A DNA stretch of 64,000 nt from Escherichia coli. Lineage in GTDB: Bacteria; Pseudomonadota; Gammaproteobacteria; Enterobacterales; Enterobacteriaceae. Position 1 is the stretch's first letter, and each line of letters starts with the position of its first letter. Positions 12,689 to 63,286 of this stretch are shown one piece after another. The position numbers and the translations under genes were made by a program. Below the pieces are notes generated by a model, which was not told where the DNA came from, did not search any database, and saw only the letters and a list, made by a program, of their open reading frames with translations. The DNA lies in the NCBI RefSeq assembly GCF_002854065.1, contig NZ_CP024147.1; one strand, 5' to 3'.

Positions 12689-12692
12689 TCCT

Positions 12693-17904: not shown

Positions 17905-20091
<2,187 letters not shown>

Positions 20092-20512: not shown

Positions 20513-20567
20513 GGTGATGCTGCCAACTTACTGATTTAGTGTATGATGGTGTTTTTGAGGTGCTCCA

Positions 20568-20843: not shown

Positions 20844-21265
20844 CCTCGCGCATACAGCCGGGCAGTGACGTCATCGTCTGCGCGGAAATGGACGAACAGT
20901 GGGGATACGTCGGGGCTAAATCGCGCCAGCGCTGGCTGTTTTACGCGTATGACAGGCTCCGGAAGACGGTTGTTGCGCACGTATTCGGTGAACGCACTAT
21001 GGCGACGCTGGGGCGTCTTATGAGCCTGCTGTCACCCTTTGACGTGGTGATATGGATGACGGATGGCTGGCCGCTGTATGAATCCCGCCTGAAGGGAAAG
21101 CTGCACGTAATCAGCAAGCGATATACGCAGCGAATTGAGCGGCATAACCTGAATCTGAGGCAGCACCTGGCACGGCTGGGACGGAAGTCGCTGTCGTTCT
21201 CAAAATCGGTGGAGCTGCATGACAAAGTCATCGGGCATTATCTGAACATAAAACACTATCAATAA
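20762..21265 (+). CDS. insB: IS1 InsB (catalytic part of InsAB' transposase, made by -1 frameshift)
   Basis: 167-aa [19 protein letters not shown]...HYLNIKHYQ in the -1 frame relative to insA. Confidence 0.95.
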
Positions 21266-21280
21266 GTTGGAGTCATTACC

Positions 21281-21288
21281 TGTGCCGC
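21281..21288. repeat. IS1 target-site duplication, right copy (TGTGCCGC)
   Basis: Matches 20505-20512 exactly. Confidence 0.85.
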
Positions 21289-21631
21289 TATCAATATCTT
21301 CCTGTTTGCAACCCAAAAGTGACAGTAACGCAGGGGCAATTGTTAGACCAGCAAGGCCTTTTCCTGATATACGCAAGAATTCTAATCGCGTTAAGCCAAT
21401 ATCTAATAGTGGACGATCAACCGGGTTCATTTATTTCGCATCCTCTTCGCAAACACAGTGCTGACAATTCAGCAGCCTGATATTAAGCATTCAACTAATA
21501 CGCTGCTGACTCTGTCCTCAACACCAGATATTTTCCCTAACCCGATAGTGTATGAGAAAAGATTTAACGCCGATAAACTAATCCTTTATGGTTAGGAGAA
21601 AAAATAATGTGGTTATTCTGGGCTCTTAACA

Positions 21632-21645: not shown

Positions 21646-21885
21646 TTAAAATTACAAAGCAAGAAATTATAAGTGAACTGATATTTATTATCATTTGAAA
21701 TGAATTTAACTTAAGCGACAATTATTTGTGACGGTCATTGCAGAAAATAAAAATAATATTATCGTTATAAATTAAAACACATATCGAAATTCGTATAATT
21801 TCAGCAGTTGTTATTTAGAATGATTAACTGGACCGCAACTGAAGCAAGAATATCAGGATGAAGCTTATCGCCTCATCCTGAATGG

Positions 21886-31339: not shown

Positions 31340-31383
31340 CGATTTACCTCACTTCATCGCTTTCAGCGTATAACAGCATGTTA

Positions 31384-31402
31384 GTGATAATGATTATCAG
31401 TT
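31384..31402. promoter_or_regulatory. Fur box in the suf promoter
   Basis: GTGATAATGATTATCAGTT matches the Fur consensus GATAATGATAATCATTATC; about 45-60 bp upstream of the sufA start. Confidence 0.65.
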
Positions 31403-31516
31403 CAACCCAGCAAACGCAGGGGCTTTACCGTAAAACATGCTTTTTGCCTGCTTTTAATAAGCATAGACCCTGATGTGTGGGTTAACAGGCACGCTAAGAA
31501 TTAGGTATCTCATTGT

Positions 31517-31621: not shown

Positions 31622-31690
31622 AATAAGAAAACCCTTAAGTCTGTGCGACACAGGCTTAAGGGTTTCTACCCCATCCGGCGCTTATCTCCG
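31622..31690 (-). ncRNA. rydB: Probable small RNA RydB
   Basis: Minus-strand 17-bp hairpin (31629-31665, one A-C mismatch) followed by UUUUCUUAUUU, at the sufA-ydiH position where RydB is annotated in K-12; the 5' end is estimated. Confidence 0.4.
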
Positions 31691-31887
31691 GCACTCTCAG
31701 TGGCTTAGCTCTTGAAGGGGCGATAAGAATAATCTCATAAAGCTAACCCGCCGTTTTAACACAAACTGCGATTAGTATTATTTTTGAACAATATCAGGCG
31801 GGTAGATAAGCAGTATTAAGAAGGTCATCGAACCTGGACGGAGGTTAATCCAGGTCGATTTGGCGAACTTGCGGCATTAAGTCAGGA

Positions 31888-37325: not shown

Positions 37326-37430
37326 ACGGTTATAAATCAACATATTGATTTATAAGCATGGAAATCCCCTGAGTGAAACAACGAATTGCTGTGTGTAGTC
37401 TTTGCCCATCTCCCACGATGGGCTTTTTTT
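37326..37430 (+). ncRNA. rprA: RprA small regulatory RNA
   Basis: Sequence ACGGTTATAAATCAACATATTGATTTATAAGCATGGAAATCCCCTGAGTGAAACAACGAATTGCTGTGTGTAGTCTTTGCCCATCTCCCACGATGGGCTTTTTTT matches RprA as I recall it, including the terminator hairpin and U-tail. Confidence 0.88.
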
Positions 37431-37568
37431 TAACATTTTTCCGCTTCGCTACCTCGCCCCTCACTCTTTCCAATAATGTTGCACAAGATACTGTGACTCT
37501 CTTCAAGCCGTCAGCAGGCTGATAATGTTATTTATATTTTATTGTTTATTTCATGCAGCCATTACACG

Positions 37569-42543: not shown

Positions 42544-44139
42544 ATGAAACCTGTAAAACCACCTCGTATTAATGGACGAGTGCCGGTCCTGTCGGCACAG
42601 GAAGCGGTGAATTATATTCCCGACGAAGCAACACTTTGTGTGTTAGGCGCTGGCGGCGGTATTCTGGAAGCCACCACGTTAATTACTGCTCTTGCTGATA
42701 AATATAAACAGACTCAAACGCCACGTAATTTATCGATTATTAGTCCAACAGGGCTTGGCGATCGCGCCGACCGTGGTATTAGTCCGCTGGCGCAAGAAGG
42801 TCTGGTTAAATGGGCATTATGCGGTCACTGGGGACAATCGCCGCGTATTTCTGATCTCGCAGAACAAAATAAAATTATTGCTTATAACTATCCACAAGGT
42901 GTACTTACACAAACCTTACGCGCCGCCGCAGCCCACCAGCCTGGTATTATTAGTGATATTGGCATCGGGACATTTGTCGATCCACGCCAGCAAGGCGGCA
43001 AACTGAATGAAGTCACTAAAGAAGACCTGATTAAACTGGTCGAGTTTGATAACAAAGAATATCTCTATTACAAAGCGATTGCGCCAGATATCGCCTTCAT
43101 TCGCGCTACCACCTGCGACAGCGAAGGCTACGCCACTTTTGAAGATGAGGTGATGTATCTCGACGCATTGGTTATTGCCCAGGCGGTGCACAATAACGGC
43201 GGTATTGTGATGATGCAGGTGCAGAAAATGGTTAAGAAAGCCACGCTGCATCCTAAATCTGTCCGTATTCCGGGTTATCTGGTGGATATTGTGGTGGTCG
43301 ATCCGGATCAAACCCAACTGTATGGCGGTGCACCGGTTAACCGCTTTATTTCTGGTGACTTCACCCTTGATGACAGTACCAAACTTAGCCTGCCCCTAAA
43401 CCAACGTAAATTAGTTGCGCGGCGCGCATTATTCGAAATGCGTAAAGGCGCGGTGGGGAATGTCGGCGTCGGTATTGCTGACGGCATTGGCCTGGTCGCT
43501 CGGGAAGAAGGTTGTGCTGATGACTTTATTCTGACGGTAGAAACAGGTCCGATTGGCGGAATTACTTCACAGGGTATCGCCTTTGGCGCGAACGTGAATA
43601 CCCGCGCCATTCTGGATATGACGTCCCAGTTTGATTTTTATCACGGTGGTGGTCTGGATGTTTGTTATTTGAGTTTTGCTGAAGTCGACCAGCACGGTAA
43701 CGTCGGTGTGCATAAATTCAATGGTAAAATCATGGGCACTGGTGGATTTATTGATATCAGTGCCACTTCGAAGAAAATCGTTTTCTGCGGCACATTAACT
43801 GCGGGCAGTTTAAACACAGAAATTACCGACGGCAAATTAAATATCGTCCAGGAAGGACGGGTGAAGAAATTTATTCGGGAACTACCGGAAATTACTTTCA
43901 GCGGAAAAATCGCTCTCGAGCGAGGGCTGGATGTTCGTTATATCACTGAGCGCGCAGTATTCACGCTGAAAGAAGACGGCCTGCATTTAATCGAAATCGC
44001 CCCTGGCGTCGATTTACAAAAAGATATTCTCGACAAAATGGATTTCACCCCAGTAATTTCGCCAGAACTCAAACTGATGGACGAAAGATTATTTATCGAT
44101 GCGGCGATGGGTTTTGTCCTGCCTGAAGCGGCTCATTAA
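42544..44139 (+). CDS. ydiF: Fused alpha/beta family-I CoA-transferase
   Basis: 531-aa ORF with CoA-transferase glutamate-site region; immediately upstream of ydiO. Confidence 0.85.
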   Translation: MKPVKPPRINGRVPVLSAQEAVNYIPDEATLCVLGAGGGILEATTLITALADKYKQTQTPRNLSIISPTGLGDRADRGISPLAQEGLVKWALCGHWGQSPRISDLAEQNKIIAYNYPQGVLTQTLRAAAAHQPGIISDIGIGTFVDPRQQGGKLNEVTKEDLIKLVEFDNKEYLYYKAIAPDIAFIRATTCDSEGYATFEDEVMYLDALVIAQAVHNNGGIVMMQVQKMVKKATLHPKSVRIPGYLVDIVVVDPDQTQLYGGAPVNRFISGDFTLDDSTKLSLPLNQRKLVARRALFEMRKGAVGNVGVGIADGIGLVAREEGCADDFILTVETGPIGGITSQGIAFGANVNTRAILDMTSQFDFYHGGGLDVCYLSFAEVDQHGNVGVHKFNGKIMGTGGFIDISATSKKIVFCGTLTAGSLNTEITDGKLNIVQEGRVKKFIRELPEITFSGKIALERGLDVRYITERAVFTLKEDGLHLIEIAPGVDLQKDILDKMDFTPVISPELKLMDERLFIDAAMGFVLPEAAH

Positions 44140-44152
44140 CAGGAGTATCACG

Positions 44153-45304
44153 ATGGATTTTTCTTTAACTGAAGAACAAGAACTGCTGCTGGCCAGTATT
44201 CGCGAACTGATTACGACTAACTTTCCGGAAGAGTATTTCCGCACCTGCGATCAAAACGGGACATACCCGCGTGAATTTATGCGGGCACTGGCGGATAACG
44301 GTATTTCCATGCTTGGCGTGCCGGAAGAATTTGGTGGTATCCCTGCGGATTACGTCACCCAGATGCTGGCGCTGATGGAAGTGTCAAAATGCGGTGCTCC
44401 GGCATTTTTGATCACCAACGGTCAATGTATTCACAGTATGCGCCGTTTCGGTTCTGCAGAGCAGCTACGTAAAACGGCAGAAAGCACCCTGGAAACCGGC
44501 GACCCCGCCTATGCCCTGGCGTTGACGGAACCAGGTGCTGGCTCAGATAACAACAGCGCCACTACCACTTACACGCGTAAAAACGGCAAGGTTTACATCA
44601 ACGGACAGAAAACTTTTATTACCGGTGCGAAAGAGTACCCGTATATGCTGGTGCTGGCGCGCGATCCTGAACCGAAAGATCCCAAAAAAGCCTTCACCCT
44701 GTGGTGGGTCGACTCCAGTAAGCCCGGCATTAAGATTAACCCGCTGCATAAAATCGGCTGGCATATGCTCAGCACCTGCGAAGTCTATCTCGACAACGTG
44801 GAAGTTGAAGAGAGCGACATGGTGGGCGAAGAAGGAATGGGTTTCCTCAATGTGATGTACAACTTTGAGATGGAGCGCCTGATCAACGCCGCGCGCAGCA
44901 CCGGCTTTGCCGAGTGTGCCTTTGAAGATGCCGCCCGCTATGCCAACCAACGTATCGCTTTTGGTAAACCCATTGGTCATAACCAGATGATCCAGGAAAA
45001 ACTGGCGCTGATGGCGATTAAGATCGACAACATGCGCAACATGGTGCTGAAAGTAGCATGGCAAGCCGATCAGCATCAGTCACTGCGCACCAGCGCGGCG
45101 CTGGCAAAACTGTATTGCGCACGTACCGCAATGGAAGTCATTGATGATGCGATTCAAATCATGGGCGGTCTGGGCTATACCGATGAAGCGCGCGTCTCCC
45201 GCTTCTGGCGTGATGTCCGTTGTGAACGTATTGGCGGCGGTACAGACGAAATTATGATTTACGTAGCAGGTCGGCAAATCCTGAAAGACTATCAGAACAA
45301 ATAA
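44153..45304 (+). CDS. ydiO: Acyl-CoA dehydrogenase family protein
   Basis: 383 aa from MDFSLTEEQELLLASIRELI... (AGGAG RBS at 44141-44145); ACAD fold motifs. Confidence 0.85.
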   Translation: MDFSLTEEQELLLASIRELITTNFPEEYFRTCDQNGTYPREFMRALADNGISMLGVPEEFGGIPADYVTQMLALMEVSKCGAPAFLITNGQCIHSMRRFGSAEQLRKTAESTLETGDPAYALALTEPGAGSDNNSATTTYTRKNGKVYINGQKTFITGAKEYPYMLVLARDPEPKDPKKAFTLWWVDSSKPGIKINPLHKIGWHMLSTCEVYLDNVEVEESDMVGEEGMGFLNVMYNFEMERLINAARSTGFAECAFEDAARYANQRIAFGKPIGHNQMIQEKLALMAIKIDNMRNMVLKVAWQADQHQSLRTSAALAKLYCARTAMEVIDDAIQIMGGLGYTDEARVSRFWRDVRCERIGGGTDEIMIYVAGRQILKDYQNK

Positions 45305-45346
45305 TCTGCAGGCGGCGCAGCTTCTTAACAAACTGCGCCGCCAGAT

Positions 45347-46258
45347 TTACCCGGCAAGACTTACCGGTTGAGGAAATTCAGATAAGATTTCTTGTTCCGC
45401 AAAACAGTTTTTAAATTGCCTGCGGTAATCGCTGGGCGAACAACCGACATGGCGCAAAAACAGTTTGGCAAAGTGATCGACATTTTCATAACCCACACGC
45501 CAGGAGATCTCTGCCTGTGATAATTCAGTATTAGTGAGTAACCATTTCGCTTCCGTCATACGCCGTTGAATAACATAGTTAATAGGGGAAATACGATACT
45601 CTTTGGTAAATTCATGGCAAATATAACTGACGCTGGCACGAAATTTTTTCGATAACTGTTCTAAAGTGATTTTTTCGCGATAATTATTATTTAGATAGAA
45701 AAGAATATCTTTTATCAGAACATCTTTTTTAATATACCCCTGCTCCGAACGATAAGCATTTTTAAAGTTTTCGTAGTAAAGAATTGCTAATGTATAGGCA
45801 AATGCATCCCATAACGAAGATGTTTGGCTATTTTTACTTTGCGGCAAAATCACACTTAGCTCATTAAATAAGGTTTTAATGACTTCTTTTCCCTGCCCCG
45901 CGGCAATTACCGGACAAGAATGCGGTTGCAGTAGATGATTTTCCTCAGCCCCCTGAAACTGAAAGCCGTACAGCGCACAGGTACACGTCGTTGCCGGATC
46001 GTTAACGTCAGAGGCCACCGCATGCAGCCTGCCGCGTTCTATCACCACTATATCATCTGCATGCGCGACATATAACGAAGAATCGATGGTAAACCTTGCC
46101 ACCCCTTTCTTGACGTAAATCAGCTCGGTTTCATTGTCATGAACGTGATGTCCAGACTCCCATTTTGGATCATCGCTAAATGCAAAACGTGAAAGCCGTG
46201 GCGTTTTACCAGCGACAAACAGCGTTTCACTGGCATTATCAAAACAGCGTTGATACAT
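45347..46258 (-). CDS. ydiP: AraC-family transcriptional regulator
   Basis: 303-aa ORF with C-terminal AraC HTH; divergent from ydiQ. Confidence 0.8.
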   Translation of the reverse strand: MYQRCFDNASETLFVAGKTPRLSRFAFSDDPKWESGHHVHDNETELIYVKKGVARFTIDSSLYVAHADDIVVIERGRLHAVASDVNDPATTCTCALYGFQFQGAEENHLLQPHSCPVIAAGQGKEVIKTLFNELSVILPQSKNSQTSSLWDAFAYTLAILYYENFKNAYRSEQGYIKKDVLIKDILFYLNNNYREKITLEQLSKKFRASVSYICHEFTKEYRISPINYVIQRRMTEAKWLLTNTELSQAEISWRVGYENVDHFAKLFLRHVGCSPSDYRRQFKNCFAEQEILSEFPQPVSLAG

Positions 46259-46573
46259 GACAACCTCCCTATTCCATGAGCAAGCAAAAACAATATATGC
46301 CGGATAAAATACGGCGTGTATTGCGGTTATACAACCGCGTTTAGCGAGAGCTAAACAAGATTATTTACACTGAATGCAAGATTGTACGGTCATGGAATAA
46401 CTATATTGCCGCAAATTGCACTTTTGTTTTAGCGATCGCATTTTTTTTGCAAGATTGTTGGCAAGGAAAACAGCTTGCTCCGTCGAAAACCCCGCACCGC
46501 TATCGCACACTATTTTCAGGCCATTTTTACCTTCCATCGGAGATGGTTCCGTATGCGACTCACAGGAGAAATC

Positions 46574-47338
46574 ATGAAAATAATAACCTGCTTTAAGCTG
46601 GTGCCTGAAGAACAGGACATTGTTGTCACTCCAGAATACACCCTGAATTTCGACAATGCCGACGCCAAAATCAGCCAGTTCGATCTCAATGCCATTGAAG
46701 CTGCAAGCCAGCTTGCAACAGATGACGATGAGATAGCCGCGCTGACCGTTGGCGGCTCATTGTTGCAGAACTCGAAAGTGCGCAAAGACGTGCTATCCCG
46801 CGGGCCGCACAGCCTGTATATGGTGCAGGATGCACAACTTGAGCATGCACTGCCTCTCGATACCGCAAAAGCGCTGGCGGCAGCAGTTGAAAAGATCGGC
46901 TTCGATTTACTGATCTTTGGTGAAGGTTCCGGCGACCTTTATGCCCAGCAGGTTGGCTTGCTGGTCGGAGAAATTCTGCAACTTCCGGTGATTAATGCAG
47001 TGAGTGCTATTCAGCGTCAGGGCAATACACTGGTGATTGAACGCACGCTTGAAGATGACGTTGAAGTTATTGAACTCTCTGTTCCAGCCGTGCTCTGCGT
47101 CACCTCCGATATTAACGTGCCACGCATTCCTTCGATGAAAGCCATTCTCGGCGCGGGTAAAAAACCGGTAAATCAGTGGCAGGCAAGTGATATTGGCTGG
47201 AGCCAGAGCGCACCACTTGCTGAACTGACCGGCATTCGCGTACCGCCGCAAACAGAACGTAAGCACATCATTCTCGATAACGATTCGCCGGAGGCCATTG
47301 CCGAGCTGGCGGAACATCTGAAGAAAGCCCTGAACTGA
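46574..47338 (+). CDS. ydiQ: Electron-transfer flavoprotein beta subunit (FixA-like)
   Basis: 254 aa from MKIITCFKLVPEEQDIVV... (AGGAG RBS at 46565-46569); the ORF-track start at 46475 is an extension. Confidence 0.85.
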   Translation: MKIITCFKLVPEEQDIVVTPEYTLNFDNADAKISQFDLNAIEAASQLATDDDEIAALTVGGSLLQNSKVRKDVLSRGPHSLYMVQDAQLEHALPLDTAKALAAAVEKIGFDLLIFGEGSGDLYAQQVGLLVGEILQLPVINAVSAIQRQGNTLVIERTLEDDVEVIELSVPAVLCVTSDINVPRIPSMKAILGAGKKPVNQWQASDIGWSQSAPLAELTGIRVPPQTERKHIILDNDSPEAIAELAEHLKKALN

Positions 47339-47357
47339 AGCCTACGGAGAAGAAACG

Positions 47358-48296
47358 ATGAGTCAATTAAACAGCGTCTGGGTCTTTAGCGATAATCCTG
47401 AACGTTATGCTGAACTGTTTGGCGGCGCTCAGCAATGGGGCCAACAGGTGTATGCCATTGTACAAAATACCGACCAGGTGCAGACAGTTATGCCTTATGG
47501 TCCAAAATGTATTTATGTTCTTGAGCAAAACGACGCGCTGCAACGCACTGAAAATTACGCCGAAAGCATTGCTGCTCTGCTGAAAGATAAACACCCCGCT
47601 ATGTTGCTACTGGCCGCGACGAAACGTGGTAAAGCTCCGGCAGCACGGTTAAGTGTGCAACTGAATGCGGCGCTGGTGAACGATGCCACGGCGGTGGATA
47701 TTGTCGATGGTCACATTTGCGCCGAACACCGGATGTATGGCGGGTTAGCGTTCGCTCAGGAAAAGATCAACAGCTCGCTAGCGATCATTACCCTTGCACC
47801 CGGTGTTCAGGAACCGTGCACCAGTGATACCTCTCATCAGTGCCCGACAGAAACGGTACCTTATGTTGCTCCGCGTCATGAAATTCTCTGTCGCGAGCGC
47901 CGTGCGAAAGCGGCAAGCAGCGTGGACCTGAGCAAAGCAAAACGTGTGGTTGGCGTCGGTCGTGGTCTGGCAGCGCAGGATGACCTGAAAATGGTCCACG
48001 AACTGGCGGCGGTGCTGAATGCTGAAGTCGGCTGTTCACGTCCAATTGCCGAAGGCGAGAACTGGATGGAGCGTGAACGTTATATCGGTGTCTCCGGCGT
48101 GTTGCTGAAATCCGATCTCTACCTGACGCTGGGGATCTCCGGGCAGATCCAACATATGGTTGGCGGCAACGGCGCAAAAGTGATTGTCGCCATCAATAAA
48201 GATAAAAATGCGCCAATCTTCAACTATGCCGACTACGGTCTGGTGGGCGATATCTACAAAGTCGTCCCTACCCTGATTAGCCAGTTGAGCCGCTAA
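47358..48296 (+). CDS. ydiR: Electron-transfer flavoprotein alpha subunit (FixB-like)
   Basis: 312-aa ORF with ETF-alpha FAD-binding C-terminal domain. Confidence 0.85.
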   Translation: MSQLNSVWVFSDNPERYAELFGGAQQWGQQVYAIVQNTDQVQTVMPYGPKCIYVLEQNDALQRTENYAESIAALLKDKHPAMLLLAATKRGKAPAARLSVQLNAALVNDATAVDIVDGHICAEHRMYGGLAFAQEKINSSLAIITLAPGVQEPCTSDTSHQCPTETVPYVAPRHEILCRERRAKAASSVDLSKAKRVVGVGRGLAAQDDLKMVHELAAVLNAEVGCSRPIAEGENWMERERYIGVSGVLLKSDLYLTLGISGQIQHMVGGNGAKVIVAINKDKNAPIFNYADYGLVGDIYKVVPTLISQLSR

Positions 48297-48351
48297 TTCC
48301 CCTTTCAACCACATCTCCCGCTGTAAACGCAGCGGGAAGGGAGCATAACGC

Positions 48352-49641
48352 ATGTCGGATGACAAATTTGATGCCATTGTGGTCGGTGCGGGCGTTGCTG
48401 GTAGCGTTGCCGCACTGGTCATGGCACGAGCCGGGCTGGATGTCCTGGTGATAGAACGCGGCGACAGTGCCGGATGTAAAAACATGACCGGCGGGCGTCT
48501 TTATGCCCACACACTTGAAGAGATTATTCCAGGCTTTGCAGCATCAGCGCCGGTAGAACGCAAGGTCACACGCGAGAAAATCTCCTTCTTAACCGAAGAG
48601 AGCGCCGTTACCCTCGATTTTCACCGCGAGCAACCAGATGTTCCGCAACACGCATCTTATACCGTATTGCGTAATCGTCTGGACCCGTGGTTGATGGAAC
48701 ATGCCGAGCAGGCGGGCGCACAGTTTATCCCGGGAGTTCGCGTCGATGCGCTGGTTCGTGAAGGAAACAAGGTCACTGGCGTCCAGGCTGGGGATGATAT
48801 TCTCGAAGCGAATGTGGTGATTCTGGCTGATGGCGTTAACTCGATGCTTGGCCGTTCGCTGGGAATGGTTCCCGCTTCCGATCCGCATCATTACGCTGTT
48901 GGTGTTAAAGAGGTTATTGGCCTCACACCAGAACAGATCAACGATCGCTTTAATATTACGGGCGAGGAAGGTGCCGCCTGGCTGTTTGCCGGTTCCCCTT
49001 CTGACGGCCTGATGGGTGGCGGATTCCTCTATACCAATAAGGATTCCATATCGTTGGGGCTGGTTTGTGGATTGGGTGATATCGCCCATGCGCAAAAAAG
49101 CGTGCCGCAAATGCTGGAAGATTTTAAACAACACCCCGCCATTCGCCCGCTGATTAGCGGCGGCAAGTTGCTTGAATATTCCGCGCATATGGTGCCGGAA
49201 GGCGGTCTGGCAATGGTGCCGCAACTGGTTAACGAGGGCGTGATGATCGTTGGTGACGCCGCAGGCTTCTGCCTGAATTTGGGTTTTACGGTCCGCGGCA
49301 TGGATTTAGCCATTGCATCGGCTCAGGCTGCCGCCACAACGGTGATCGCCGCCAAAGAACGCGCGGATTTCTCCGCCAGCAGTCTTGCGCAATACAAACG
49401 TGAGCTGGAACAAAGTTGTGTTATGCGCGATATGCAGCATTTTCGCAAGATCCCGACGCTGATGGAAAATCCGCGCCTGTTTAGTCAGTATCCGCGCATG
49501 GTCGCCGACATCATGAACGATATGTTCACCATTGACGGCAAACCAAACCAGCCGGTACGCAAAATGATCATGGGACACGCGAAGAAAATTGGGCTGATCA
49601 ACTTGCTGAAAGATGGCATTAAGGGAGCAACCGCGCTATGA
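48352..49641 (+). CDS. ydiS: ETF:quinone oxidoreductase-like FAD flavoprotein (FixC-like)
   Basis: 429-aa ORF with N-terminal GxGxxG (VVGAGVAGSVAA). Confidence 0.85.
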   Translation: MSDDKFDAIVVGAGVAGSVAALVMARAGLDVLVIERGDSAGCKNMTGGRLYAHTLEEIIPGFAASAPVERKVTREKISFLTEESAVTLDFHREQPDVPQHASYTVLRNRLDPWLMEHAEQAGAQFIPGVRVDALVREGNKVTGVQAGDDILEANVVILADGVNSMLGRSLGMVPASDPHHYAVGVKEVIGLTPEQINDRFNITGEEGAAWLFAGSPSDGLMGGGFLYTNKDSISLGLVCGLGDIAHAQKSVPQMLEDFKQHPAIRPLISGGKLLEYSAHMVPEGGLAMVPQLVNEGVMIVGDAAGFCLNLGFTVRGMDLAIASAQAAATTVIAAKERADFSASSLAQYKRELEQSCVMRDMQHFRKIPTLMENPRLFSQYPRMVADIMNDMFTIDGKPNQPVRKMIMGHAKKIGLINLLKDGIKGATAL

Positions 49642-49931
49642 GCCAGAACGCTACGGTTAACGTCGACATCAAATTAGGCGTCAATAAATTCCATGTTGAT
49701 GAGGGCCACCCGCATATCATTTTGGCGGCAAATCCCGATATCAATGAATTCCGTAAATTAATGAAAGCCTGCCCTGCCGGACTTTATAAGCAGGATGATG
49801 CCGGCAACATTCATTTTGATTCCGCCGGTTGTCTGGAGTGCGGCACCTGTCGGGTGCTGTGCGGTAACACTATTCTCGAACAGTGGCAATATCCCGCAGG
49901 CACCTTCGGTATTGATTTTCGCTACGGCTAA
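49638..49931 (+). CDS. ydiT: Ferredoxin-like protein (FixX-like)
   Basis: 97-aa ORF with Cys cluster CPAGLY...CLECGTCRVLC; 4-nt overlap with ydiS. Confidence 0.85.
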   Translation: MSQNATVNVDIKLGVNKFHVDEGHPHIILAANPDINEFRKLMKACPAGLYKQDDAGNIHFDSAGCLECGTCRVLCGNTILEQWQYPAGTFGIDFRYG

Positions 49932-51253
49932 TCATGCATCCCACAGGCCCGCATCTCGGGCCTGATGTTCTGTTTCGAGAGTCCAAAATGAAAGTGACAT
50001 TAACGTTTAACGAACAACGTCGTGCGGCGTATCGTCAGCAAGGGCTATGGGGCGATGCTTCGCTGGCCGATTACTGGCAGCAGACCGCTCGTGCGATGCC
50101 AGACAAAATTGCCGTGGTCGATAATCATGGAGCATCGTACACCTATAGCGCGCTCGATCACGCCGCGAGCTGTCTGGCAAACTGGATGTTAGCGAAGGGT
50201 ATTGAATCAGGCGATCGCATCGCATTTCAACTGCCAGGCTGGTGTGAATTTACCGTTATCTATCTTGCCTGCCTGAAAATCGGTGCGGTTTCCGTACCGC
50301 TGTTGCCTTCCTGGCGGGAAGCAGAACTGGTATGGGTGCTTAATAAGTGTCAGGCAAAAATGTTCTTTGCACCGACGTTGTTTAAACAAACGCGTCCGGT
50401 AGATTTAATCCTGCCGCTGCAAAATCAGCTTCCACAACTACAACAAATTGTCGGCGTGGACAAACTGGCTCCCGCCACCTCTTCCCTCTCATTAAGTCAG
50501 ATTATCGCCGACAATACCCCACTGACCACGGCGATAACGACCCACGGCGATGAATTAGCCGCGGTGCTGTTTACCTCCGGAACCGAGGGCCTGCCAAAGG
50601 GCGTGATGCTTACGCATAACAATATTCTCGCCAGTGAGCGGGCTTATTGCGCGCGGCTGAATCTGACCTGGCAGGATGTCTTTATGATGCCTGCGCCACT
50701 CGGCCACGCAACGGGCTTTCTGCATGGCGTAACAGCACCATTTTTGATTGGTGCTCGCAGCGTGTTGTTAGATATTTTCACTCCTGATGCGTGTCTCGCG
50801 CTGCTTGAGCAGCAGCGTTGCACCTGTATGCTCGGCGCAACGCCGTTTGTCTATGATCTTTTGAATTTACTAGAGAAACAACCCGCAGACCTTTCAGCGC
50901 TGCGCTTCTTTCTTTGCGGCGGTACCACAATCCCCAAAAAAGTGGCGCGTGAATGCCAGCAGCGCGGCATTAAATTATTAAGTGTTTATGGTTCCACAGA
51001 AAGTTCGCCGCATGCGGTGGTGAATCTCGATGATCCTTTGTCGCGCTTTATGCACACCGATGGTTACGCTGCCGCAGGTGTAGAGATTAAAGTGGTCGAT
51101 GACGCACGCAAGACCTTACCGCCAGGTTGCGAAGGTGAAGAAGCCTCGCGTGGCCCCAATGTGTTTATGGGGTATTTTGATGAACCTGAATTAACCGCCC
51201 GAGCCCTGGATGAAGAAGGCTGGTATTACAGCGGCGATCTCTGCCGTATGGAT

Positions 51254-51262
51254 GAAGCTGGC
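51254..51262. repeat. IS1 target-site duplication, left copy (GAAGCTGGC)
   Basis: Identical 9-mer at 51254-51262 and 52031-52039 flanking the IS1. Confidence 0.9.
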
Positions 51263-51317
51263 GGTGATGCTGCCAACTTACTGATTTAGTGTATGATGGT
51301 GTTTTTGAGGTGCTCCA

Positions 51318-51593
51318 GTGGCTTCTGTTTCTATCAGCTGTCCCTCCTGTTCAGCTACTGACGGGGTGGTGCGTAACGGCAAAAGCACTGCCGGACATCA
51401 GCGCTATCTCTGCTCTCACTGCCGTAAAACATGGCAACTGCAGTTCACTTACACCGCTTCTCAACCCGGTACGCACCAGAAAATCATTGATATGGCCATG
51501 AATGGCGTTGGATGCCGGGCAACCGCCCGCATTATGGGCGTTGGCCTCAACACGATTTTCCGCCATTTAAAAAACTCAGGCCGCAGTCGGTAA
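51318..51593 (+). CDS. insA: IS1 InsA
   Basis: 91-aa ORF identical to the copy A InsA. Confidence 0.95.
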
Positions 51594-52015
51594 CCTCGCG
51601 CATACAGCCGGGCAGTGACGTCATCGTCTGCGCGGAAATGGACGAACAGTGGGGATACGTCGGGGCTAAATCGCGCCAGCGCTGGCTGTTTTACGCGTAT
51701 GACAGGCTCCGGAAGACGGTTGTTGCGCACGTATTCGGTGAACGCACTATGGCGACGCTGGGGCGTCTTATGAGCCTGCTGTCACCCTTTGACGTGGTGA
51801 TATGGATGACGGATGGCTGGCCGCTGTATGAATCCCGCCTGAAGGGAAAGCTGCACGTAATCAGCAAGCGATATACGCAGCGAATTGAGCGGCATAACCT
51901 GAATCTGAGGCAGCACCTGGCACGGCTGGGACGGAAGTCGCTGTCGTTCTCAAAATCGGTGGAGCTGCATGACAAAGTCATCGGGCATTATCTGAACATA
52001 AAACACTATCAATAA
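51512..52015 (+). CDS. insB: IS1 InsB
   Basis: 167-aa ORF identical to the copy A InsB. Confidence 0.95.
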
Positions 52016-52030
52016 GTTGGAGTCATTACC

Positions 52031-52039
52031 GAAGCTGGC
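52031..52039. repeat. IS1 target-site duplication, right copy (GAAGCTGGC)
   Basis: Matches 51254-51262 exactly. Confidence 0.9.
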
Positions 52040-52436
52040 TATATAAAAATAACCGGGCGCAAGAAAGATATTATTGTCCGCGGCGGCGAAAATATTAGCA
52101 GCCGTGAAGTGGAAGATATTTTATTACAGCATCCTAAAATTCACGATGCTTGTGTGGTTGCAATGCCCGATGAACGCTTAGGTGAACGTTCATGCGCTTA
52201 TGTCGTGCTGAAAGCACCGCATCATTCATTATCGCTGGAAGATGTAGTGGCTTTTTTTAGCCGTAAACGGGTCGCAAAATATAAATACCCTGAACATATC
52301 GTGGTAATCGAAAAACTACCGCGCACTGCCTCAGGTAAAATACAAAAGTTTTTGTTAAGAAAAGATATTATGCGGCGATTAACGCAGGATGTCTGTGAAG
52401 AGATTGAATAAGTTTCATCTTCGGGGGTCACATAAC

Positions 52437-52477
52437 CCCGGCGACAAAACGCCGCCGGGTATTTATTTTATTTCTTC
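52437..52477 (+). terminator. Putative intrinsic terminator after fadK, overlapping the ppsA stop
   Basis: Stem CCCGGCG / CGCCGGG followed by TATTTATTTTATTTCTT. Confidence 0.5.
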
Positions 52478-54846
52478 AGTTCAGCCAGGCTTAACCAGGT
52501 TTGCACCACGGTGTCCGGATTCAGAGACAGGCTATCGATCCCCTCTTCCATCAACCATGCGGCAAAATCTTCGTGGTCGGACGGACCCTGACCGCAAATC
52601 CCGACATATTTGCCCTGTTTCTTCGCGGCACGAATCGCCATCGACAGCAGTGCTTTCACCGCATCGTTGCGCTCATCGAACAATTCAGACACCACGCCGG
52701 AGTCACGATCCAGACCGAGCGCCAGCTGCGTCATATCGTTTGAGCCAATTGAGAAGCCGTCGAAATATTCGAGGAACTGCTCGGCCAGCAAGGCGTTGGA
52801 CGGGATTTCACACATCATGATGATTTTCAGCCCGTTCTCACCACGCTTCAGCCCCTGACGCGCCAGTTCCTCAACCACCGCTTTCGCCTGATCTACGGTA
52901 CGCACGAACGGGATCATGATCTCAACGTTGGTCAGCCCCATGTCGTTGCGCACACGTTTCACTGCTTCGCACTCCAGCGCGAAACAGTCGCGGAAGCTGT
53001 CGGAAACATAGCGGCCCGCGCCACGGAAGCCGAGCATCGGGTTCTCTTCATCTGGCTCGTAACGCTCACCACCGACCAGGTTGGCATATTCGTTCGATTT
53101 AAAATCAGAGAGCCGGACAATGACGCGCTTCGGATAAAACGCGGCACCCAGCGTCGCGATCCCTTCAGTCAGACGACCAACGTAAAATTCACGCGGAGAA
53201 TCAAAACCTTTCATCATCTCGCGGATTTCGTTTTGCAACTGCGGTTCCTGATCGTCAAACTCAAGCAGTGCGCGTGGGTGGACGCCAATCATACGGTTGA
53301 TGATAAATTCCAGACGCGCAAGTCCCACGCCTTCGTTCGGCAGACAGGCGAAGTCGAAAGCTCGGTCCGGGTTACCGACGTTCATCATCACTTTCAACGG
53401 CAGATCCGGCATCGTTTCTACGCTGGAGCTTTTCACGCTAAATTCCAGCAACTCCGCATAGACGTAACCGGTATCACCTTCGGCACAAGAAACAGTGACG
53501 TTCTCACCGTCTTTCATCCGTTCTGTTGCATCACCACAGCCCACTACCGCCGGAATGCCCAGTTCACGAGCGATGATCGCCGCGTGACAGGTACGACCGC
53601 CACGGTTGGTGACGATGGCAGATGCTTTCTTCATGATCGGTTCCCAGTCCGGGTCGGTCATGTCAGTGACCAGCACGTCACCAGGTTCGATGCGGTTCAT
53701 TTCGCTGATGTCATGGATGACTTTCACCGGACCCGCACCGATGCGATGACCGATAGCACGGCCTTCGGCGATAATCTTACCCTGTGAATGCAGCGTATAA
53801 CGCTCCATGACCTGACCGCGTGAGCGCACGGTTTCCGGACGCGCCTGCACAATGAACAGTTTGCCGGTGTGGCCATCTTTCGCCCACTCAATATCCATCG
53901 GGCGACCGTAGTGTTTCTCAATTTGTACGGCCTGTTTTGCCAGTTCCTGCACTTCTTCGTTGGTCAGCGAGAAGATGTCACGCTGTTCCTGCGGTACGTC
54001 TTCGATTTTAACCTGCTTGCCGTGCTCCTGGGTCGGCGCGTAAACCATGCGGATTTTTTTCGACCCCATGGTGCGGCGCACGATAGCCGGGCGATTCGCC
54101 GCCAGTGTCGGTTTATGCACGTAAAACTCATCCGGGTTAACCGCACCCTGCACGACCATCTCACCAAGGCCCCATGCGGAAGTGATAAACACCACCTGGT
54201 CAAAGCCGGATTCGGTATCAATGGAGAACATCACGCCAGATGATGCGAGGTCAGAGCGCACCATCCGTTGAACACCAGCGGAGAGCGCCACACCACGGTG
54301 ATCGTAACCCTGGTGCACACGATAAGAGATGGCGCGATCGTTAAACAGAGAAGCAAATACATGTTTCACTGCCACGAGAACGGCGTCAAAACCCTGAACG
54401 TTGAGGAAGGTTTCCTGCTGACCGGCAAAAGAAGCGTCCGGCATATCTTCTGCGGTGGCGGAGGAGCGCACCGCAAAAGAGGCGTTTTCGTCATCGGCGG
54501 AAAGCTGTGCATAGGCTTCGCGGATGGCGTTTTCCAGCTCAGGCTGGAAGGGAGTGTCGATAATCCACTGGCGGATTTGCGTGCCCGCTTTCGCAAGCTG
54601 AGTAACATCGTCAATATCCGTTTTATCCAGCAGTTCATAAATGCGCTGGTTTACGCCGCTTTGGTCCAGAAACTGGTTAAACGCGTCGGCGGTTGTGGCG
54701 AAACCATTCGGAACGGAAACACCCATTCCGGAAAGGTTAGTAATCATTTCACCCAGGGAGGCATTTTTGCCCCCAACCCTGTCTACATCATTCATGCCGA
54801 GTTGGTTATACCAAAGCACCAGCGGTGACGAGCCATTGTTGGACAT
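52468..54846 (-). CDS. ppsA: Phosphoenolpyruvate synthase
   Basis: 792-aa [37 protein letters not shown]... with PEP-utilising phosphohistidine domain. Confidence 0.96.
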
Positions 54847-56168: not shown

Positions 56169-57215
56169 ATGAACAGAACTGACGAACTCCGTACTGCGCG
56201 TATTGAGAGCCTGGTAACGCCCGCCGAACTCGCGCTACGGTATCCCGTAACGCCTGGAGTCGCCACCCATGTCACCGACTCCCGCCGCAGAATTGAAAAA
56301 ATACTGAATGGTGAAGATAAGCGACTGTTGGTCATTATTGGCCCCTGCTCGATCCACGATCTCACCGCTGCAATGGAGTACGCCACCCGTCTGCAGTCGC
56401 TGCGCAACCAGTACCAGTCACGGCTGGAAATCGTAATGCGCACCTATTTTGAAAAACCACGAACTGTTGTCGGCTGGAAAGGACTAATCTCCGATCCAGA
56501 TTTAAACGGCAGCTATCGGGTAAATCACGGTCTGGAGCTGGCGCGCAAATTACTTTTACAGGTAAATGAGCTGGGCGTCCCAACCGCGACCGAGTTCCTC
56601 GATATGGTGACCGGTCAGTTTATTGCTGATTTAATCAGTTGGGGCGCGATTGGCGCACGTACTACCGAAAGTCAGATCCACCGTGAAATGGCTTCGGCAC
56701 TCTCCTGTCCGGTAGGTTTTAAAAATGGTACCGATGGCAACACGCGGATTGCTGTGGATGCTATCCGCGCAGCCCGCGCCAGCCATATGTTCCTCTCGCC
56801 AGACAAAAATGGTCAGATGACCATCTATCAGACCAGCGGCAACCCGTATGGCCACATTATTATGCGTGGCGGCAAAAAACCGAATTATCATGCCGATGAT
56901 ATCGCCGCAGCCTGCGATACGCTGCACGAGTTTGATTTACCTGAACATCTGGTGGTGGATTTCAGCCACGGTAACTGCCAGAAGCAGCACCGTCGCCAGT
57001 TAGAAGTTTGTGAGGATATTTGTCAGCAAATTCGCAATGGCTCTACGGCGATTGCTGGAATTATGGCGGAAAGTTTCCTGCGCGAAGGAACGCAAAAAAT
57101 CGTCGGCAGTCAGCCGCTCACTTACGGTCAATCCATTACCGACCCGTGTCTGGGCTGGGAAGATACCGAACGCCTGGTCGAAAAACTCGCCTCTGCGGTA
57201 GATACCCGCTTCTGA
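56169..57215 (+). CDS. aroH: Tryptophan-sensitive DAHP synthase
   Basis: 348 aa from MNRTDELRTARIESLVTPAELALRYP...; the ORF-track start at 56046 runs through the operator region. Confidence 0.95.
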   Translation: MNRTDELRTARIESLVTPAELALRYPVTPGVATHVTDSRRRIEKILNGEDKRLLVIIGPCSIHDLTAAMEYATRLQSLRNQYQSRLEIVMRTYFEKPRTVVGWKGLISDPDLNGSYRVNHGLELARKLLLQVNELGVPTATEFLDMVTGQFIADLISWGAIGARTTESQIHREMASALSCPVGFKNGTDGNTRIAVDAIRAARASHMFLSPDKNGQMTIYQTSGNPYGHIIMRGGKKPNYHADDIAAACDTLHEFDLPEHLVVDFSHGNCQKQHRRQLEVCEDICQQIRNGSTAIAGIMAESFLREGTQKIVGSQPLTYGQSITDPCLGWEDTERLVEKLASAVDTRF

Positions 57216-57304
57216 ATGCGTGCCCATTCCTGACGGGATGGGCATTTCTGCGCAACTTGTTGTCTTCTCAACACATTACTGCTTGCTCTGGTCAGCCATA
57301 ATAT

Positions 57305-57323
57305 TGATAATAAGAATCATTGT
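57305..57323. promoter_or_regulatory. Fur-box-like site upstream of ydiE
   Basis: TGATAATAAGAATCATTGT resembles the Fur consensus; 24 bp upstream of the ydiE start. Confidence 0.5.
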
Positions 57324-57346
57324 TATATCAATTATTATTAATTTTT

Positions 57347-57538
57347 ATGCGTTATACGGATAGCAGAAAACTCACGCCTGAAACGGATGCCAATCACAAG
57401 ACCGCTTCCCCGCAGCCTATTCGGCGAATTTCCAGCCAGACACTGTTAGGTCCGGATGGCAAACTGATTATCGATCATGACGGGCAAGAATATCTGCTCC
57501 GTAAAACTCAGGCTGGCAAGCTGCTGTTGACCAAGTAG
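57347..57538 (+). CDS. ydiE: HemP-family small protein
   Basis: 63 aa from [28 protein letters not shown]...; the ORF-track start at 57320 lies inside the putative Fur box. Confidence 0.75.
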
Positions 57539-57541
57539 CCT

Positions 57542-59017
<1,476 letters not shown>

Positions 59018-59040: not shown

Positions 59041-59754
59041 TTATCGCTGAACCAACGTCGTTATCTGATTTATAGGAACGGCAGGCCACAGGCATCCCTG
59101 GAGAGCATGGAAATCGAAGGGGGTAATCTGTGCCAATATTTCTGCCGTATCAATGCCCCCCGCGATGATGCAATTGCAACAAGGGGAAATTTGCGCCTGG
59201 ATCGCACGAATAAACGGTTCGAAGGAGCGGTGCGTGATTTGTTGCTGAATAAAACTTTTATCCAGCATGACGCGGGTGAAAAGACCATCAAAAACCGCTT
59301 TCATTGTGCTATTGCCTGCTCCCAAATTACCTAACACAAGGGGATACACTTGCGATAAGGATAAAAGACCGCGATTATCTTTTCCTTCATTGAGATGCGG
59401 GTAATTCTCATTAATCAACAGTTCAATAAACGGATATTTTAATAGTTCGCCTGCGTAATTATCCCTGTCTAATAATAATGTAGCCACTTGTGGCGTTAAA
59501 TTAAGCCAGGCAAAGAGTTTATGTTGAATAAAAAAATGTTGGCATGATTTTAGTAATTCCAACTGCTCTGAAAATAATTGCCAATGTTGCTCCTCGGTAA
59601 GTTGCGCTATAACCCGACTCGTCGGGATACGCACCGTGCCATCTTCACTGGAGAAATGGGTAATTAACTCAACGCCGACAAGGACTTGCTGGTTATCTCT
59701 TATCGGCAGGAAATAGCAATCAGAATGATAAAGATTCTCCAAAAAAATCTTCAT
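59041..59754 (-). CDS. ydiV: Degenerate EAL-domain anti-FlhD4C2 factor
   Basis: 237-aa ORF; position between selO and nlpC. Confidence 0.8.
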   Translation of the reverse strand: MKIFLENLYHSDCYFLPIRDNQQVLVGVELITHFSSEDGTVRIPTSRVIAQLTEEQHWQLFSEQLELLKSCQHFFIQHKLFAWLNLTPQVATLLLDRDNYAGELLKYPFIELLINENYPHLNEGKDNRGLLSLSQVYPLVLGNLGAGNSTMKAVFDGLFTRVMLDKSFIQQQITHRSFEPFIRAIQAQISPCCNCIIAGGIDTAEILAQITPFDFHALQGCLWPAVPINQITTLVQR

Positions 59755-62886: not shown

Positions 62887-62945
62887 GGTATCCGTTCTGC
62901 TGAAGTGTCATGGCGTTGATTTTACGGTGACTCTTCGACAGTGAA

Positions 62946-62975
62946 AAGAAAAAAGGCCGCAGAGCGGCCTTTTTA
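62946..62975. terminator. Bidirectional intrinsic terminator downstream of ihfA
   Basis: Stem GGCCGC / GCGGCC flanked by an A-run upstream and T-run downstream. Confidence 0.6.
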
Positions 62976-62986
62976 GTTAGATCAGA

Positions 62987-63286
62987 TTACTCGTCTTTGG
63001 GCGAAGCGTTTTCGACCCGGCTTTTTAACTTCTGCCCGGGTCTGAAGGTCACCACGCGCCGTGCTGTAATGGGAATATCCTCGCCCGTTTTCGGGTTACG
63101 TCCCGGGCGTTGATTCTTATCACGCAGATCGAAGTTACCAAAACCAGAGAGTTTCACCTGTTCGCCGTTTTCCAGAGCGCGACGGATCTCTTCGAAAAAC
63201 AGTTCAACCAGTTCTTTGGCATCCCGCTTGCTAAGCCCAAGCTTATCAAACAGATATTCTGACATTTCAGCTTTTGTAAGCGCCAT
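62987..63286 (-). CDS. ihfA: Integration host factor alpha subunit
   Basis: 99-aa [55 protein letters not shown]... Confidence 0.97.

What the first reader, a model, noticed from the sequence alone, without database searches (positions are those of the whole stretch)
57305..57323. Fur-like box immediately upstream of the HemP-like ydiE
TGATAATAAGAATCATTGT lies 24 bp before the ydiE start. HemP-family proteins are typically iron-regulated, so this is a plausible Fur-repressed small gene. The longer ORF-track start would sit inside the site.
Basis: partly seen in the sequence, partly recalled or inferred. Interest (0 to 1): 0.25.

Follow-up and report, generated by a model that had tools for sequence, protein, structure and literature searches.

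The report
Known Fur operator of E. coli ydiE
The 19-base sequence is a real, strongly conserved binding site for the iron-sensing repressor Fur in front of the small HemP-family gene ydiE, but this regulation has already been predicted, measured and mapped in E. coli and Salmonella, so the finding is correct and ordinary.

Summary
TGATAATAAGAATCATTGT is at 57305-57323. The ydiE/hemP ATG is at 57347, and the alternative TTG start (57320) lies inside the site. The site matches the 19-bp Fur consensus at 15/19 (register 57306-57324), with a second 14/19 match shifted by 6 bp. About 0.13 such matches are expected per shuffled window. In 13 syntenic aroH-hemP-selO spacers from Escherichia, Citrobacter and Salmonella, 18 of the 19 bases are invariant, while the rest of the spacer is only 46-61% identical between genera.

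Gao et al. 2023 place ydiE in the core Fur regulon of nine E. coli strains. Their W3110 ChIP-exo peak maps to window 57315-57327 and was called only under iron-replete conditions. ydiE rises 4.7- to 280-fold in Δfur in eight of the nine strains. Earlier work predicted the site and showed Fe-Fur-dependent expression in E. coli and Salmonella.

The most likely mechanism is that Fe2+-Fur occludes a σ70 promoter whose −10 (GATAAT, 57306-57311) lies inside the box. This assignment is inferred, because I found no mapped transcription start. Novelty: already known. Interest is low.

The parts
57305..57323 (+). The best 19-bp register is 57306-57324 (15/19). In 7-1-7 form it reads TGATAAT-A-AGAATCA at 57305-57319.
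   Evidence: 18/19 positions are invariant in 13 orthologous spacers. The W3110 Fur ChIP-exo peak P67 maps to 57315-57327.
57300..57318 (+). Overlapping second Fur-consensus register, shifted by 6 bp (AATATTGATAATAAGAATC, 14/19). This is typical of hexamer-array Fur operators.
   Evidence: seen in all orthologues at 13-15/19.
57283..57288 (+). Inferred −35 element TTGCTC (promoter model A). CTTG at 57282-57285 is invariant, and C at 57286 is kept in 12 of 13 orthologues.
   Evidence: It sits 17 bp upstream of GATAAT in 13/13 sequences. No TSS data were found, so this is an inference.
57306..57311 (+). Inferred −10 element GATAAT (5/6 to TATAAT), lying inside the Fur box. The predicted transcription start is about 57318-57320.
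   Evidence: model A conserved in 13/13. The alternative, model B from Shimada 2014 (TTGATA 57304-57309, 16 bp, TATCAA 57326-57331), has a −10 that is not conserved outside Escherichia (1-3/6). Either way the box overlaps core promoter elements.
57331..57341 (+). Second conserved AT-rich block (ATTATTATTAA) between the box and the ATG. It could be an extension of the Fur hexamer array or part of a Shine-Dalgarno-less translation initiation region.
   Evidence: 7 of 11 positions invariant, the other four kept in 10-12 of the 13 sequences; 12-13/19 to the Fur consensus. Function not tested.
57347..57538 (+). ydiE / hemP coding sequence: 63 aa, Pfam HemP PF10636, identical to the protein in PDB 4YNX. 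This is the regulated gene.
57221..57243 (+). Conserved GC-rich hairpin just after the aroH stop codon, probably the aroH terminator. It would separate ydiE transcription from aroH.
   Evidence: MFE −20.9 kcal/mol for the folded 50-nt stretch 57213-57262, z −3.4. GGGATGGGC is conserved in the alignment. The terminator scan did not call it because the U tract is weak.

Best explanation
The site is the Fur operator of the monocistronic ydiE (hemP) gene. When iron is sufficient, Fe2+-Fur dimers bind the 19-bp box, and probably the adjacent AT-rich hexamers as well. The box overlaps the core σ70 promoter, most likely covering its −10 hexamer GATAAT (57306-57311) and the transcription start, so RNA polymerase is excluded and ydiE stays off. 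When iron is scarce Fur loses its metal and leaves the DNA. The promoter needs no activator and fires, producing the 63-aa HemP-family protein.

Shown: the sequence match, the conservation, in-vivo Fur occupancy under iron-replete conditions, and Δfur de-repression (the last two from published data). Inferred: the exact −35/−10 assignment, the transcription start, and occlusion as the mode of repression.
For: Sequence: 15/19 plus an overlapping 14/19 match to the Fur consensus. This is rare by chance: 0.13 expected per window, and 10 of 5000 shuffles of the spacer reach it.

Footprint: in 13 syntenic aroH-hemP-selO loci (synteny), 20 of 22 columns across 57304-57325 are invariant, against 15 of 74 in the rest of the spacer (Fisher p=2e-9). 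Identity outside the box is 46-61% between genera. The single variable position, G57314, is T in most Citrobacter and Salmonella sequences, which raises their match to 16/19.

Within E. coli, 5342 of 5426 complete genomes keep the 35-mer around the site with at most two changes, and 4129 keep it exactly.

Published binding: Fur ChIP-exo peaks are assigned to ydiE in MG1655 (P53), W3110 (P67) and BL21 (P50). All are labelled 'R', meaning iron-replete only, and intergenic, and the MG1655 peak is also marked as present in Seo et al.. W3110 P67 maps to window 57315-57327, with 9 of its 13 bases inside the 19-mer.

Published expression: the Δfur log2 fold change for ydiE is +2.87 in MG1655, +8.14 in W3110, and +2.2 to +7.1 in six other strains. 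ydiE is in the core regulon and in both Fur iModulons. Salmonella Δfur gives 7.4-fold. Egg-white iron restriction induces it about 4-fold. Prior in-silico prediction and Fe2+-Fur-dependent expression are summarised.

Promoter: RpoD holoenzyme alone binds this spacer in genomic SELEX, and TTGC(T/C)N-17-GATAAT is conserved in 13/13 sequences. aroH changes by −0.48 (MG1655) and +0.54 (W3110) in Δfur, while ydiE rises 7- to 280-fold, so ydiE has its own promoter.

Analogy: Yersinia hemP operons are Fur-repressed from promoters about 42 bp upstream of hemP, and in phem-2 the Fur box lies at the −10 motif.
Against: No transcription start site for ydiE was found in the supplements I could read, so the overlap of the box with the −10 is inferred. 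The generic promoter scan did not call a + strand promoter here, because TTGCTC is only 3/6 to the −35 consensus. Shimada 2014 proposed different hexamers.

In BL21, ydiE goes down rather than up in Δfur (−1.10) even though the box is identical and a Fur peak is present.

The spacer is also flagged as an H-NS binding site, so Fur may not be the only protein there.

I have seen no footprint or EMSA on this exact DNA. The ChIP-exo 13-bp 'peak' is offset about 6 bp to the 3' side of the motif centre.
Confidence: 0.93

Rival explanations
1. Fur represses ydiE from this box, but the promoter is the one proposed by Shimada et al.: −35 TTGATA (57304-57309), a 16-bp spacer, and −10 TATCAA (57326-57331). 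Fur would then cover the −35 and the spacer rather than the −10 and the start site.
For: This is the published hexamer assignment for the RpoD-SELEX peak in the spacer. TTGATA matches the −35 consensus at 5/6 and is invariant.
Against: The hexamers were assigned computationally. TATCAA lacks the near-universal final T. The −10 position is not conserved outside Escherichia (1-3/6 in Citrobacter and Salmonella). The TTGATA conservation is already explained by the Fur box. Model A has an independently conserved CTTGC 17 bp upstream of GATAAT.
Confidence: 0.2
2. The match is incidental. On this view it is simply an AT-rich promoter or H-NS-bound stretch, and iron regulation of ydiE is indirect.
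For: The surrounding 57 nt are only 19% GC. Shimada et al. flag an H-NS site in this spacer. −10-like GATAAT hexamers resemble Fur half-sites by nature.
Against: Even shuffles of the AT-rich 57-mer alone reach 15/19 only 38 times in 5000. The exact 19-mer, not just its AT content, is invariant across three genera. Fur ChIP-exo peaks sit on it in several strains and only when iron is replete. Δfur de-represses the gene.
Confidence: 0.03
3. The box mainly controls something other than ydiE. Candidates are a Fur roadblock on aroH read-through, or the minus-strand promoter-like site (ATAACA-17-TATTAT, 57326 to 57298) that would drive an antisense RNA into the aroH 3' end.
For: The only hit of the generic promoter scan in this region is on the minus strand and overlaps the box. 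The aroH terminator hairpin has a weak U tract.
Against: aroH changes little in Δfur and not consistently in direction (−0.48 in MG1655, +0.54 in W3110), while ydiE rises 7- to 280-fold. The minus-strand match is 9/12, and about 0.6 such sites are expected by chance in the region. No antisense transcript is reported, and no Rfam family lies here.
Confidence: 0.04

Closest known systems
E. coli ydiE (b1705) Fur site as published: Gao et al. 2023 NAR (PMC10164565), flagged there as also found by Seo et al.; earlier predictions and expression data summarised in PMC3136457
   Same: It is the same locus and the same sequence. MG1655, W3110 and BL21 have the identical 19-mer. The ChIP-exo peak falls on it. 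Binding is iron-replete only and the gene is de-repressed in Δfur.
   Different: Nothing of substance. The window's strain differs from K-12 at two spacer positions outside the box (57237 and 57274).
Salmonella enterica ydiE (STM1346) Fur-repressed promoter (Troxell et al. 2011, PMC3212961, citing Tsolis 1995 and Bjarnason 2003)
   Same: It is the orthologous gene in the same aroH-hemP-selO context. The core is nearly the same, GATAATAATAATCATTGTG (16/19). It is de-repressed 7.4-fold in Δfur.
   Different: The N-terminal third of the protein and the rest of the spacer have diverged (46% identity outside the box).
Yersinia enterocolitica hemP promoter of the hemPRSTUV hemin-uptake operon (Stojiljkovic & Hantke 1992; Jaworska et al. 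2018, PMC6158557)
   Same: A HemP-family small protein gene sits directly behind a Fur-repressed promoter about 42 bp upstream of its start. In phem-2 the Fur box lies at the −10 motif. Here the box starts 41 nt before the ATG and contains the inferred −10.
   Different: In Yersinia, hemP is the first gene of a heme receptor/transport operon. Here ydiE is monocistronic, lying between aroH and a convergent selO, with no heme-uptake genes nearby.
sufA Fur box in the same window (31380-31404)
   Same: It is a classical Fur operator upstream of an iron-responsive operon. It matches the consensus (16/19), has an adjacent ChIP-exo peak (W3110 P66 = window 31402-31414) and shows strong Δfur de-repression.
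   Different: It is a closer match to the consensus and serves a promoter also known to integrate other regulators (from general knowledge, not tested here). It controls a six-gene operon.

Membership tests
Fur operator (classical E. coli 'Fur box') | Sequence resembling the 19-bp palindromic consensus GATAATGATAATCATTATC / overlapping 7-1-7 inverted repeats | tested here: met
   15/19 at 57306-57324 and 14/19 in the −6 register. By direct reading, TGATAAT-A-AGAATCA matches the 7-1-7 form at 12/14. It scores 10/13 (57305-57319) and 11/13 (57311-57325) against the ChIP-exo-derived motif TGAnAATnATTcTCA. Chance expectation is 0.13 per window.
Fur operator (classical E. coli 'Fur box') | Position overlapping the core promoter of the regulated gene | tested here: inconclusive
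   The box overlaps core elements in both candidate promoters: the −10 in model A, and the −35 plus spacer in model B. RpoD holoenzyme binds this spacer in vitro. No mapped TSS was found.
Fur operator (classical E. coli 'Fur box') | Evolutionary conservation of the site relative to flanking non-coding DNA | tested here: met
   20 of 22 columns are invariant, against 15 of 74 outside the box (p=2e-9), in 13 syntenic loci from three genera. The site is kept in 5342 of 5426 E. coli genomes.
Fur operator (classical E. coli 'Fur box') | Occupancy by Fur in vivo or in vitro, dependent on iron | not testable with these tools
   Taken from published data. ChIP-exo peaks are reported in MG1655, W3110 and BL21, under the iron-replete condition only. 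I mapped the W3110 peak onto the site.
Fur operator (classical E. coli 'Fur box') | Fur- and iron-dependent expression of the downstream gene | not testable with these tools
   Taken from published data. Δfur log2FC is +2.2 to +8.1 in 8 of 9 E. coli strains and −1.1 in BL21. Salmonella gives 7.4-fold. Iron restriction induces the gene.
HemP/HmuP family (Pfam PF10636) for the downstream gene | Match to the HemP domain model above the curated threshold | tested here: met
   56.8 bits against a cut-off of 25, E=2e-15, residues 27-63, covering the full model 1-37. NCBIfam equivalog NF007559 scores 136 bits.
HemP/HmuP family (Pfam PF10636) for the downstream gene | Small protein (<90 aa) without a canonical DNA-binding domain | tested here: met
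   63 aa, with only the HemP domain found. The family is described this way in PMC11442138.
HemP/HmuP family (Pfam PF10636) for the downstream gene | Linkage to a heme uptake or utilisation operon that it regulates | tested here: not met
   ydiE is flanked by aroH and a convergent selO in Escherichia, Citrobacter and Salmonella. No heme receptor or transporter gene is adjacent. YdiE is a family member by sequence, but the family's usual role cannot be assumed for it.
HemP/HmuP family (Pfam PF10636) for the downstream gene | Heme binding and regulatory activity | not testable with these tools
   A crystal structure exists (4YNX, 'Uncharacterized protein YdiE'). I found no functional data for E. 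coli YdiE in the held literature.

The most novel reading that the evidence does not exclude
The operator itself is not new. The most novel reading my evidence leaves open concerns what it controls. ydiE is a Fur-controlled, stand-alone HemP-family gene kept in the same aroH-selO slot in Escherichia, Citrobacter and Salmonella, with no linked heme-uptake genes. It might therefore encode an iron- or heme-responsive regulator with an unknown target outside heme uptake. The conserved, Shine-Dalgarno-less AT-rich leader (57331-57341) could add a second, post-transcriptional layer of control. The sign reversal in BL21 Δfur could also reflect a real strain-specific rewiring linked to the T-to-A change at 57302.
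Probability: 0.12. Interest if true: 0.4.

Novelty: already known. Interest (0 to 1): 0.1.

Why it matters
This confirms that a reader working from sequence alone can pick out a genuine transcription-factor operator. The biology itself is textbook Fur repression and is already recorded for this gene in genome-wide Fur studies. What remains open is modest: the exact promoter and transcription start of ydiE, why BL21 behaves differently, and what a stand-alone HemP-family protein does in bacteria where it is not linked to heme-uptake genes.

Tried and rejected
(1) I first assumed the window started at position 1 of the CUWW06 stretch I had fetched, and so placed the window's best Fur match (31380-31398) upstream of lpp, 'unbound' in ChIP-exo. 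A blastn check showed that mapping was off by about 7-8 kb. The site is the known sufA Fur box, and the W3110 suf peak maps next to it.

(2) I looked for a mapped ydiE transcription start in the supplements of three papers (PMC4676285, PMC7815308, PMC10301672). Nothing was held or listed.

(3) I tried to read Bjarnason 2003 and Tsolis 1995 directly. Neither is held, so they are cited only through PMC3212961.

(4) The consensus search with at most 3 mismatches misses the site, which has 4. I redid the scan with my own script.

(5) The generic promoter and terminator scan found no + strand promoter and no terminator here. I relied instead on conservation and an RNA fold.

(6) Rfam finds no RNA family in the spacer, so an RNA-element explanation was dropped.

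(7) My first translation coordinates were off by one and were corrected.

(8) I ran no further search on distant HemP homologues, because the literature already documents Fur control of hemP genes elsewhere.

Full report
**What is in the sequence**

The window is an E. coli chromosomal segment. The 701 bases around the finding match 5422 of 5426 complete E. coli genomes, and RefSeq annotates them as aroH, hemP (K-12 name ydiE, b1705) and a convergent selO.

The string TGATAATAAGAATCATTGT is at 57305-57323. The ydiE ATG is at 57347, so the ATG starts 24 nt after the last base of the site. The TTG that opens the longer ORF (57320-57322) lies inside the site.

The ATG is the accepted start for three reasons:
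- NCBI's equivalog model covers residues 1-63 of 63.
- The protein crystallised as PDB 4YNX starts at MRYTD and is identical to the window's protein.
- The in-frame extension upstream of the ATG is not conserved outside Escherichia.

YdiE matches Pfam HemP (PF10636) at E=2e-15 over residues 27-63.

**Is the match more than chance?**

Against the classical Fur consensus GATAATGATAATCATTATC, the best register (57306-57324) matches at 15/19. A second register 6 bp upstream (57300-57318) matches at 14/19, which is the overlapping-hexamer pattern typical of Fur sites. With 4 mismatches the site falls just outside the 3-mismatch tool search.

In 300 dinucleotide-preserving shuffles of the window, matches of >=15/19 occur 0.13 times per window. 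A 15/19 match appears in 10 of 5000 shuffles of the 131-nt spacer. It appears in 38 of 5000 shuffles of only the very AT-rich (19% GC) 57-mer around the site. AT-richness alone therefore does not explain it.

As an internal control, the other top hits of the same scans in this window fall at places where Fur ChIP-exo peaks are published:
- the sufA Fur box (31380-31404, 16/19);
- a palindrome upstream of ydhY (21679-21693);
- a site in the first codons of ydiV (59721-59740).

**Phylogenetic footprint**

One scan of the species-representative genome collection returned 12 usable loci: four other Escherichia lineages, six Citrobacter, and Salmonella arizonae and diarizonae. All are syntenic, with aroH upstream on the same strand and selO converging downstream.

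In the alignment of the upstream regions, ATTGATAATAA[G/T/A]AATCATTGT is present in every sequence. Across 57304-57325, 20 of 22 columns are invariant, against 15 of 74 in the remaining spacer (Fisher p=2e-9). Identity to the window outside the box is only 46-61% in Citrobacter and Salmonella. The single variable base (G57314) is T in most non-Escherichia sequences, which raises their match to 16/19.

Within E. coli, 5342 of 5426 genomes keep the 35-mer around the site with at most two changes, and 4129 keep it exactly.

**What is already published**

Gao et al. [quoted passage not shown] Their Dataset 2 lists these peaks:

| Strain | Peak | Coordinates | Label |
|---|---|---|---|
| MG1655 | P53 | 1787605-1787617 | ydiE, intergenic, 'R', also in Seo et al. 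|
| W3110 | P67 | 1791295-1791307 | ydiE, intergenic, 'R' |
| BL21 | P50 | 1733997-1734009 | ydiE, intergenic, 'R' |

'R' means the peak was called only under iron-replete conditions.

I fetched the W3110 record and mapped P67 to window 57315-57327. Nine of its 13 bases lie inside the 19-mer.

Their expression tables give ydiE log2(Δfur/WT) of +2.87 in MG1655 and +8.14 in W3110. Six further strains range from +2.2 to +7.1, and BL21 gives −1.10.

Other published evidence:
- Troxell et al. 2011 (PMC3212961) found Salmonella ydiE 7.4-fold up in Δfur with a predicted Fur site. They cite earlier evidence from McHugh 2003, Bjarnason 2003 and Tsolis 1995, and Stojiljkovic & Hantke 1992 for Yersinia hemP.
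- The COLOMBOS paper (2011) notes that a Fur site at ydiE had been predicted by independent studies and that its transcription is Fe2+-Fur dependent.
- Iron restriction in egg white induces the Salmonella gene about 4-fold.

**How it most likely works**

The site is a simple Fur operator on the promoter of a monocistronic gene.

aroH ends at 57215 and is followed by a conserved GC-rich hairpin (57221-57243; MFE −20.9 kcal/mol for the 50-nt stretch folded, z −3.4). aroH changes little in Δfur while ydiE rises 7- to 280-fold. ydiE therefore has its own promoter. RpoD holoenzyme alone binds this spacer in genomic SELEX (Shimada 2014), so no activator seems to be needed.

Two hexamer assignments are possible:
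- **Model A.** The footprint favours −35 TTGCTC (57283-57288), a 17-bp spacer, and −10 GATAAT (57306-57311). CTTG at 57282-57285 is invariant and C57286 is kept in 12 of 13 sequences, and this conserved CTTGC lies 17 bp upstream of GATAAT in all 13 sequences. This puts the −10 and the predicted start (about 57318-57320) inside the box.
- **Model B.** Shimada's computational assignment is TTGATA-16-TATCAA. Its −10 lacks the final T and is not conserved outside Escherichia.

In either model Fur overlaps core promoter elements, so Fe2+-Fur should exclude RNA polymerase. I found no mapped transcription start, so this step is inferred.

The arrangement parallels Yersinia, where hemP operons are Fur-repressed from promoters about 42 bp upstream of hemP, and where in phem-2 the Fur box lies at the −10 motif.

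**Comparison with known families**

As an operator, this is the published ydiE Fur site. K-12 and BL21 carry the identical 19-mer.

As a gene, YdiE is a HemP/HmuP family member by sequence and size. It fails one usual family trait, which is linkage to a heme-uptake operon. Family members elsewhere are small heme-binding proteins that activate heme-uptake genes transcriptionally or post-transcriptionally. No function is reported for E. coli YdiE in the literature I could search.

**Rivals**

- An incidental AT-rich or H-NS stretch is contradicted by the shuffles, by exact-sequence conservation and by the ChIP-exo data.
- Control of aroH read-through or of a minus-strand promoter-like site has no support from the expression data.
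- No Rfam family lies in the spacer.

**Unresolved**

- BL21 shows ydiE down in Δfur although a Fur peak is present and the box is identical. The only upstream difference from K-12 is T to A at 57302.
- The 25 nt before the ATG contain no Shine-Dalgarno-like purine run.
- A second conserved AT-rich block (57331-57341) has no assigned role.

**Verdict**

The finding is already known, interest is low, and nothing here is categorically new.

Noticed in passing
window 20513-21279 (flanks 20504-20512 and 21280-21288): An IS1 copy (InsA ORF 20568-20843, InsB' ORF 20762-21265) is flanked by 9-bp direct repeats CTGTGCCGC. It is absent from the otherwise 99.97%-identical strain CUWW06. It splits the ferredoxin-like gene ydhY, the first gene of the ydhYVWXUT operon, into fragments at 20028-20498 and 21200-21430 on the minus strand.
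   Followed up: partly
window 31380-31404: This is the best Fur-consensus match in the window (GTTAGTGATAATGATTATC, 16/19; TGATAATGATTATCA, 12/13). It lies 41-65 nt upstream of the sufA ATG (31339, minus strand) and is the known suf operon Fur box. The W3110 ChIP-exo peak P66 maps next to it, at 31402-31414.
   Followed up: yes
window 21679-21693: A near-perfect palindrome, TGATATTTATTATCA (11/13 to the ChIP-exo Fur motif), lies upstream of ydhY. Gao et al. list an intergenic Fur peak for the ydhY operon in BL21, and ydhY and ydhV drop strongly in W3110 Δfur (log2FC −7.3 and −5.4). In this strain the operon's first gene is interrupted by IS1.
   Followed up: partly
window 59721-59740 (inside the 5' end of ydiV/rflP; ATG at 59754, minus strand): A Fur-like site (14/19; TGATAAAGATTCTCC, 11/13) lies within the first dozen codons of the anti-FlhDC factor gene ydiV. 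Published Fur ChIP-exo peaks in W3110 (P68, mapping to window 59716-59728) and BL21 (P51) fall on it. The MG1655 peak P54 maps about 100 nt further upstream by my offset, which is inconsistent with its 'intragenic' label.
   Followed up: partly
window 57302 (BL21(DE3) NC_012971.2, L018 position ~185): BL21 is the only one of nine strains where ydiE goes down in Δfur (log2FC −1.10), despite a Fur peak at the same place and an identical 19-mer. Its only difference from K-12 in the 160 nt upstream of and across the start is T to A, 3 nt 5' of the box. The cause is unknown.
   Followed up: partly
window 57536-57544: The ydiE stop codon (57536-57538) and the stop codon of the convergent selO (57542-57544, minus strand) are only 3 nt apart, so their 3' ends must overlap. 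The pair ydiE-selO is listed by ExcludonFinder. selO (ydiU) also rises in W3110 Δfur (log2FC +1.6).
   Followed up: no
window 57322-57346: No Shine-Dalgarno-like purine run precedes the ydiE ATG. The leader is almost pure A/T and includes a conserved block, ATTATTATTAA, at 57331-57341. Some Citrobacter orthologues have GAG or GAA 5-7 nt before their ATG.
   Followed up: no
window 3630-4020, 12612-12893, 31661-31721, 37326-37433, 62887-63045: Rfam hits above the gathering score: STnc550 (−), two tRNAs (RefSeq annotates tRNA-Val) with an overlapping HPnc0260 antisense-family hit (−), rydB (−), RprA (+) and STnc540 (−).
   Followed up: no
window ~42738-53999: The window carries about 7.2 kb between ydiF and ppsA that its near-identical relative CUWW06 lacks, judged from coordinate arithmetic on the blastn blocks. 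I did not examine the content; K-12 has the ydiO-fadK genes there, from general knowledge.
   Followed up: no
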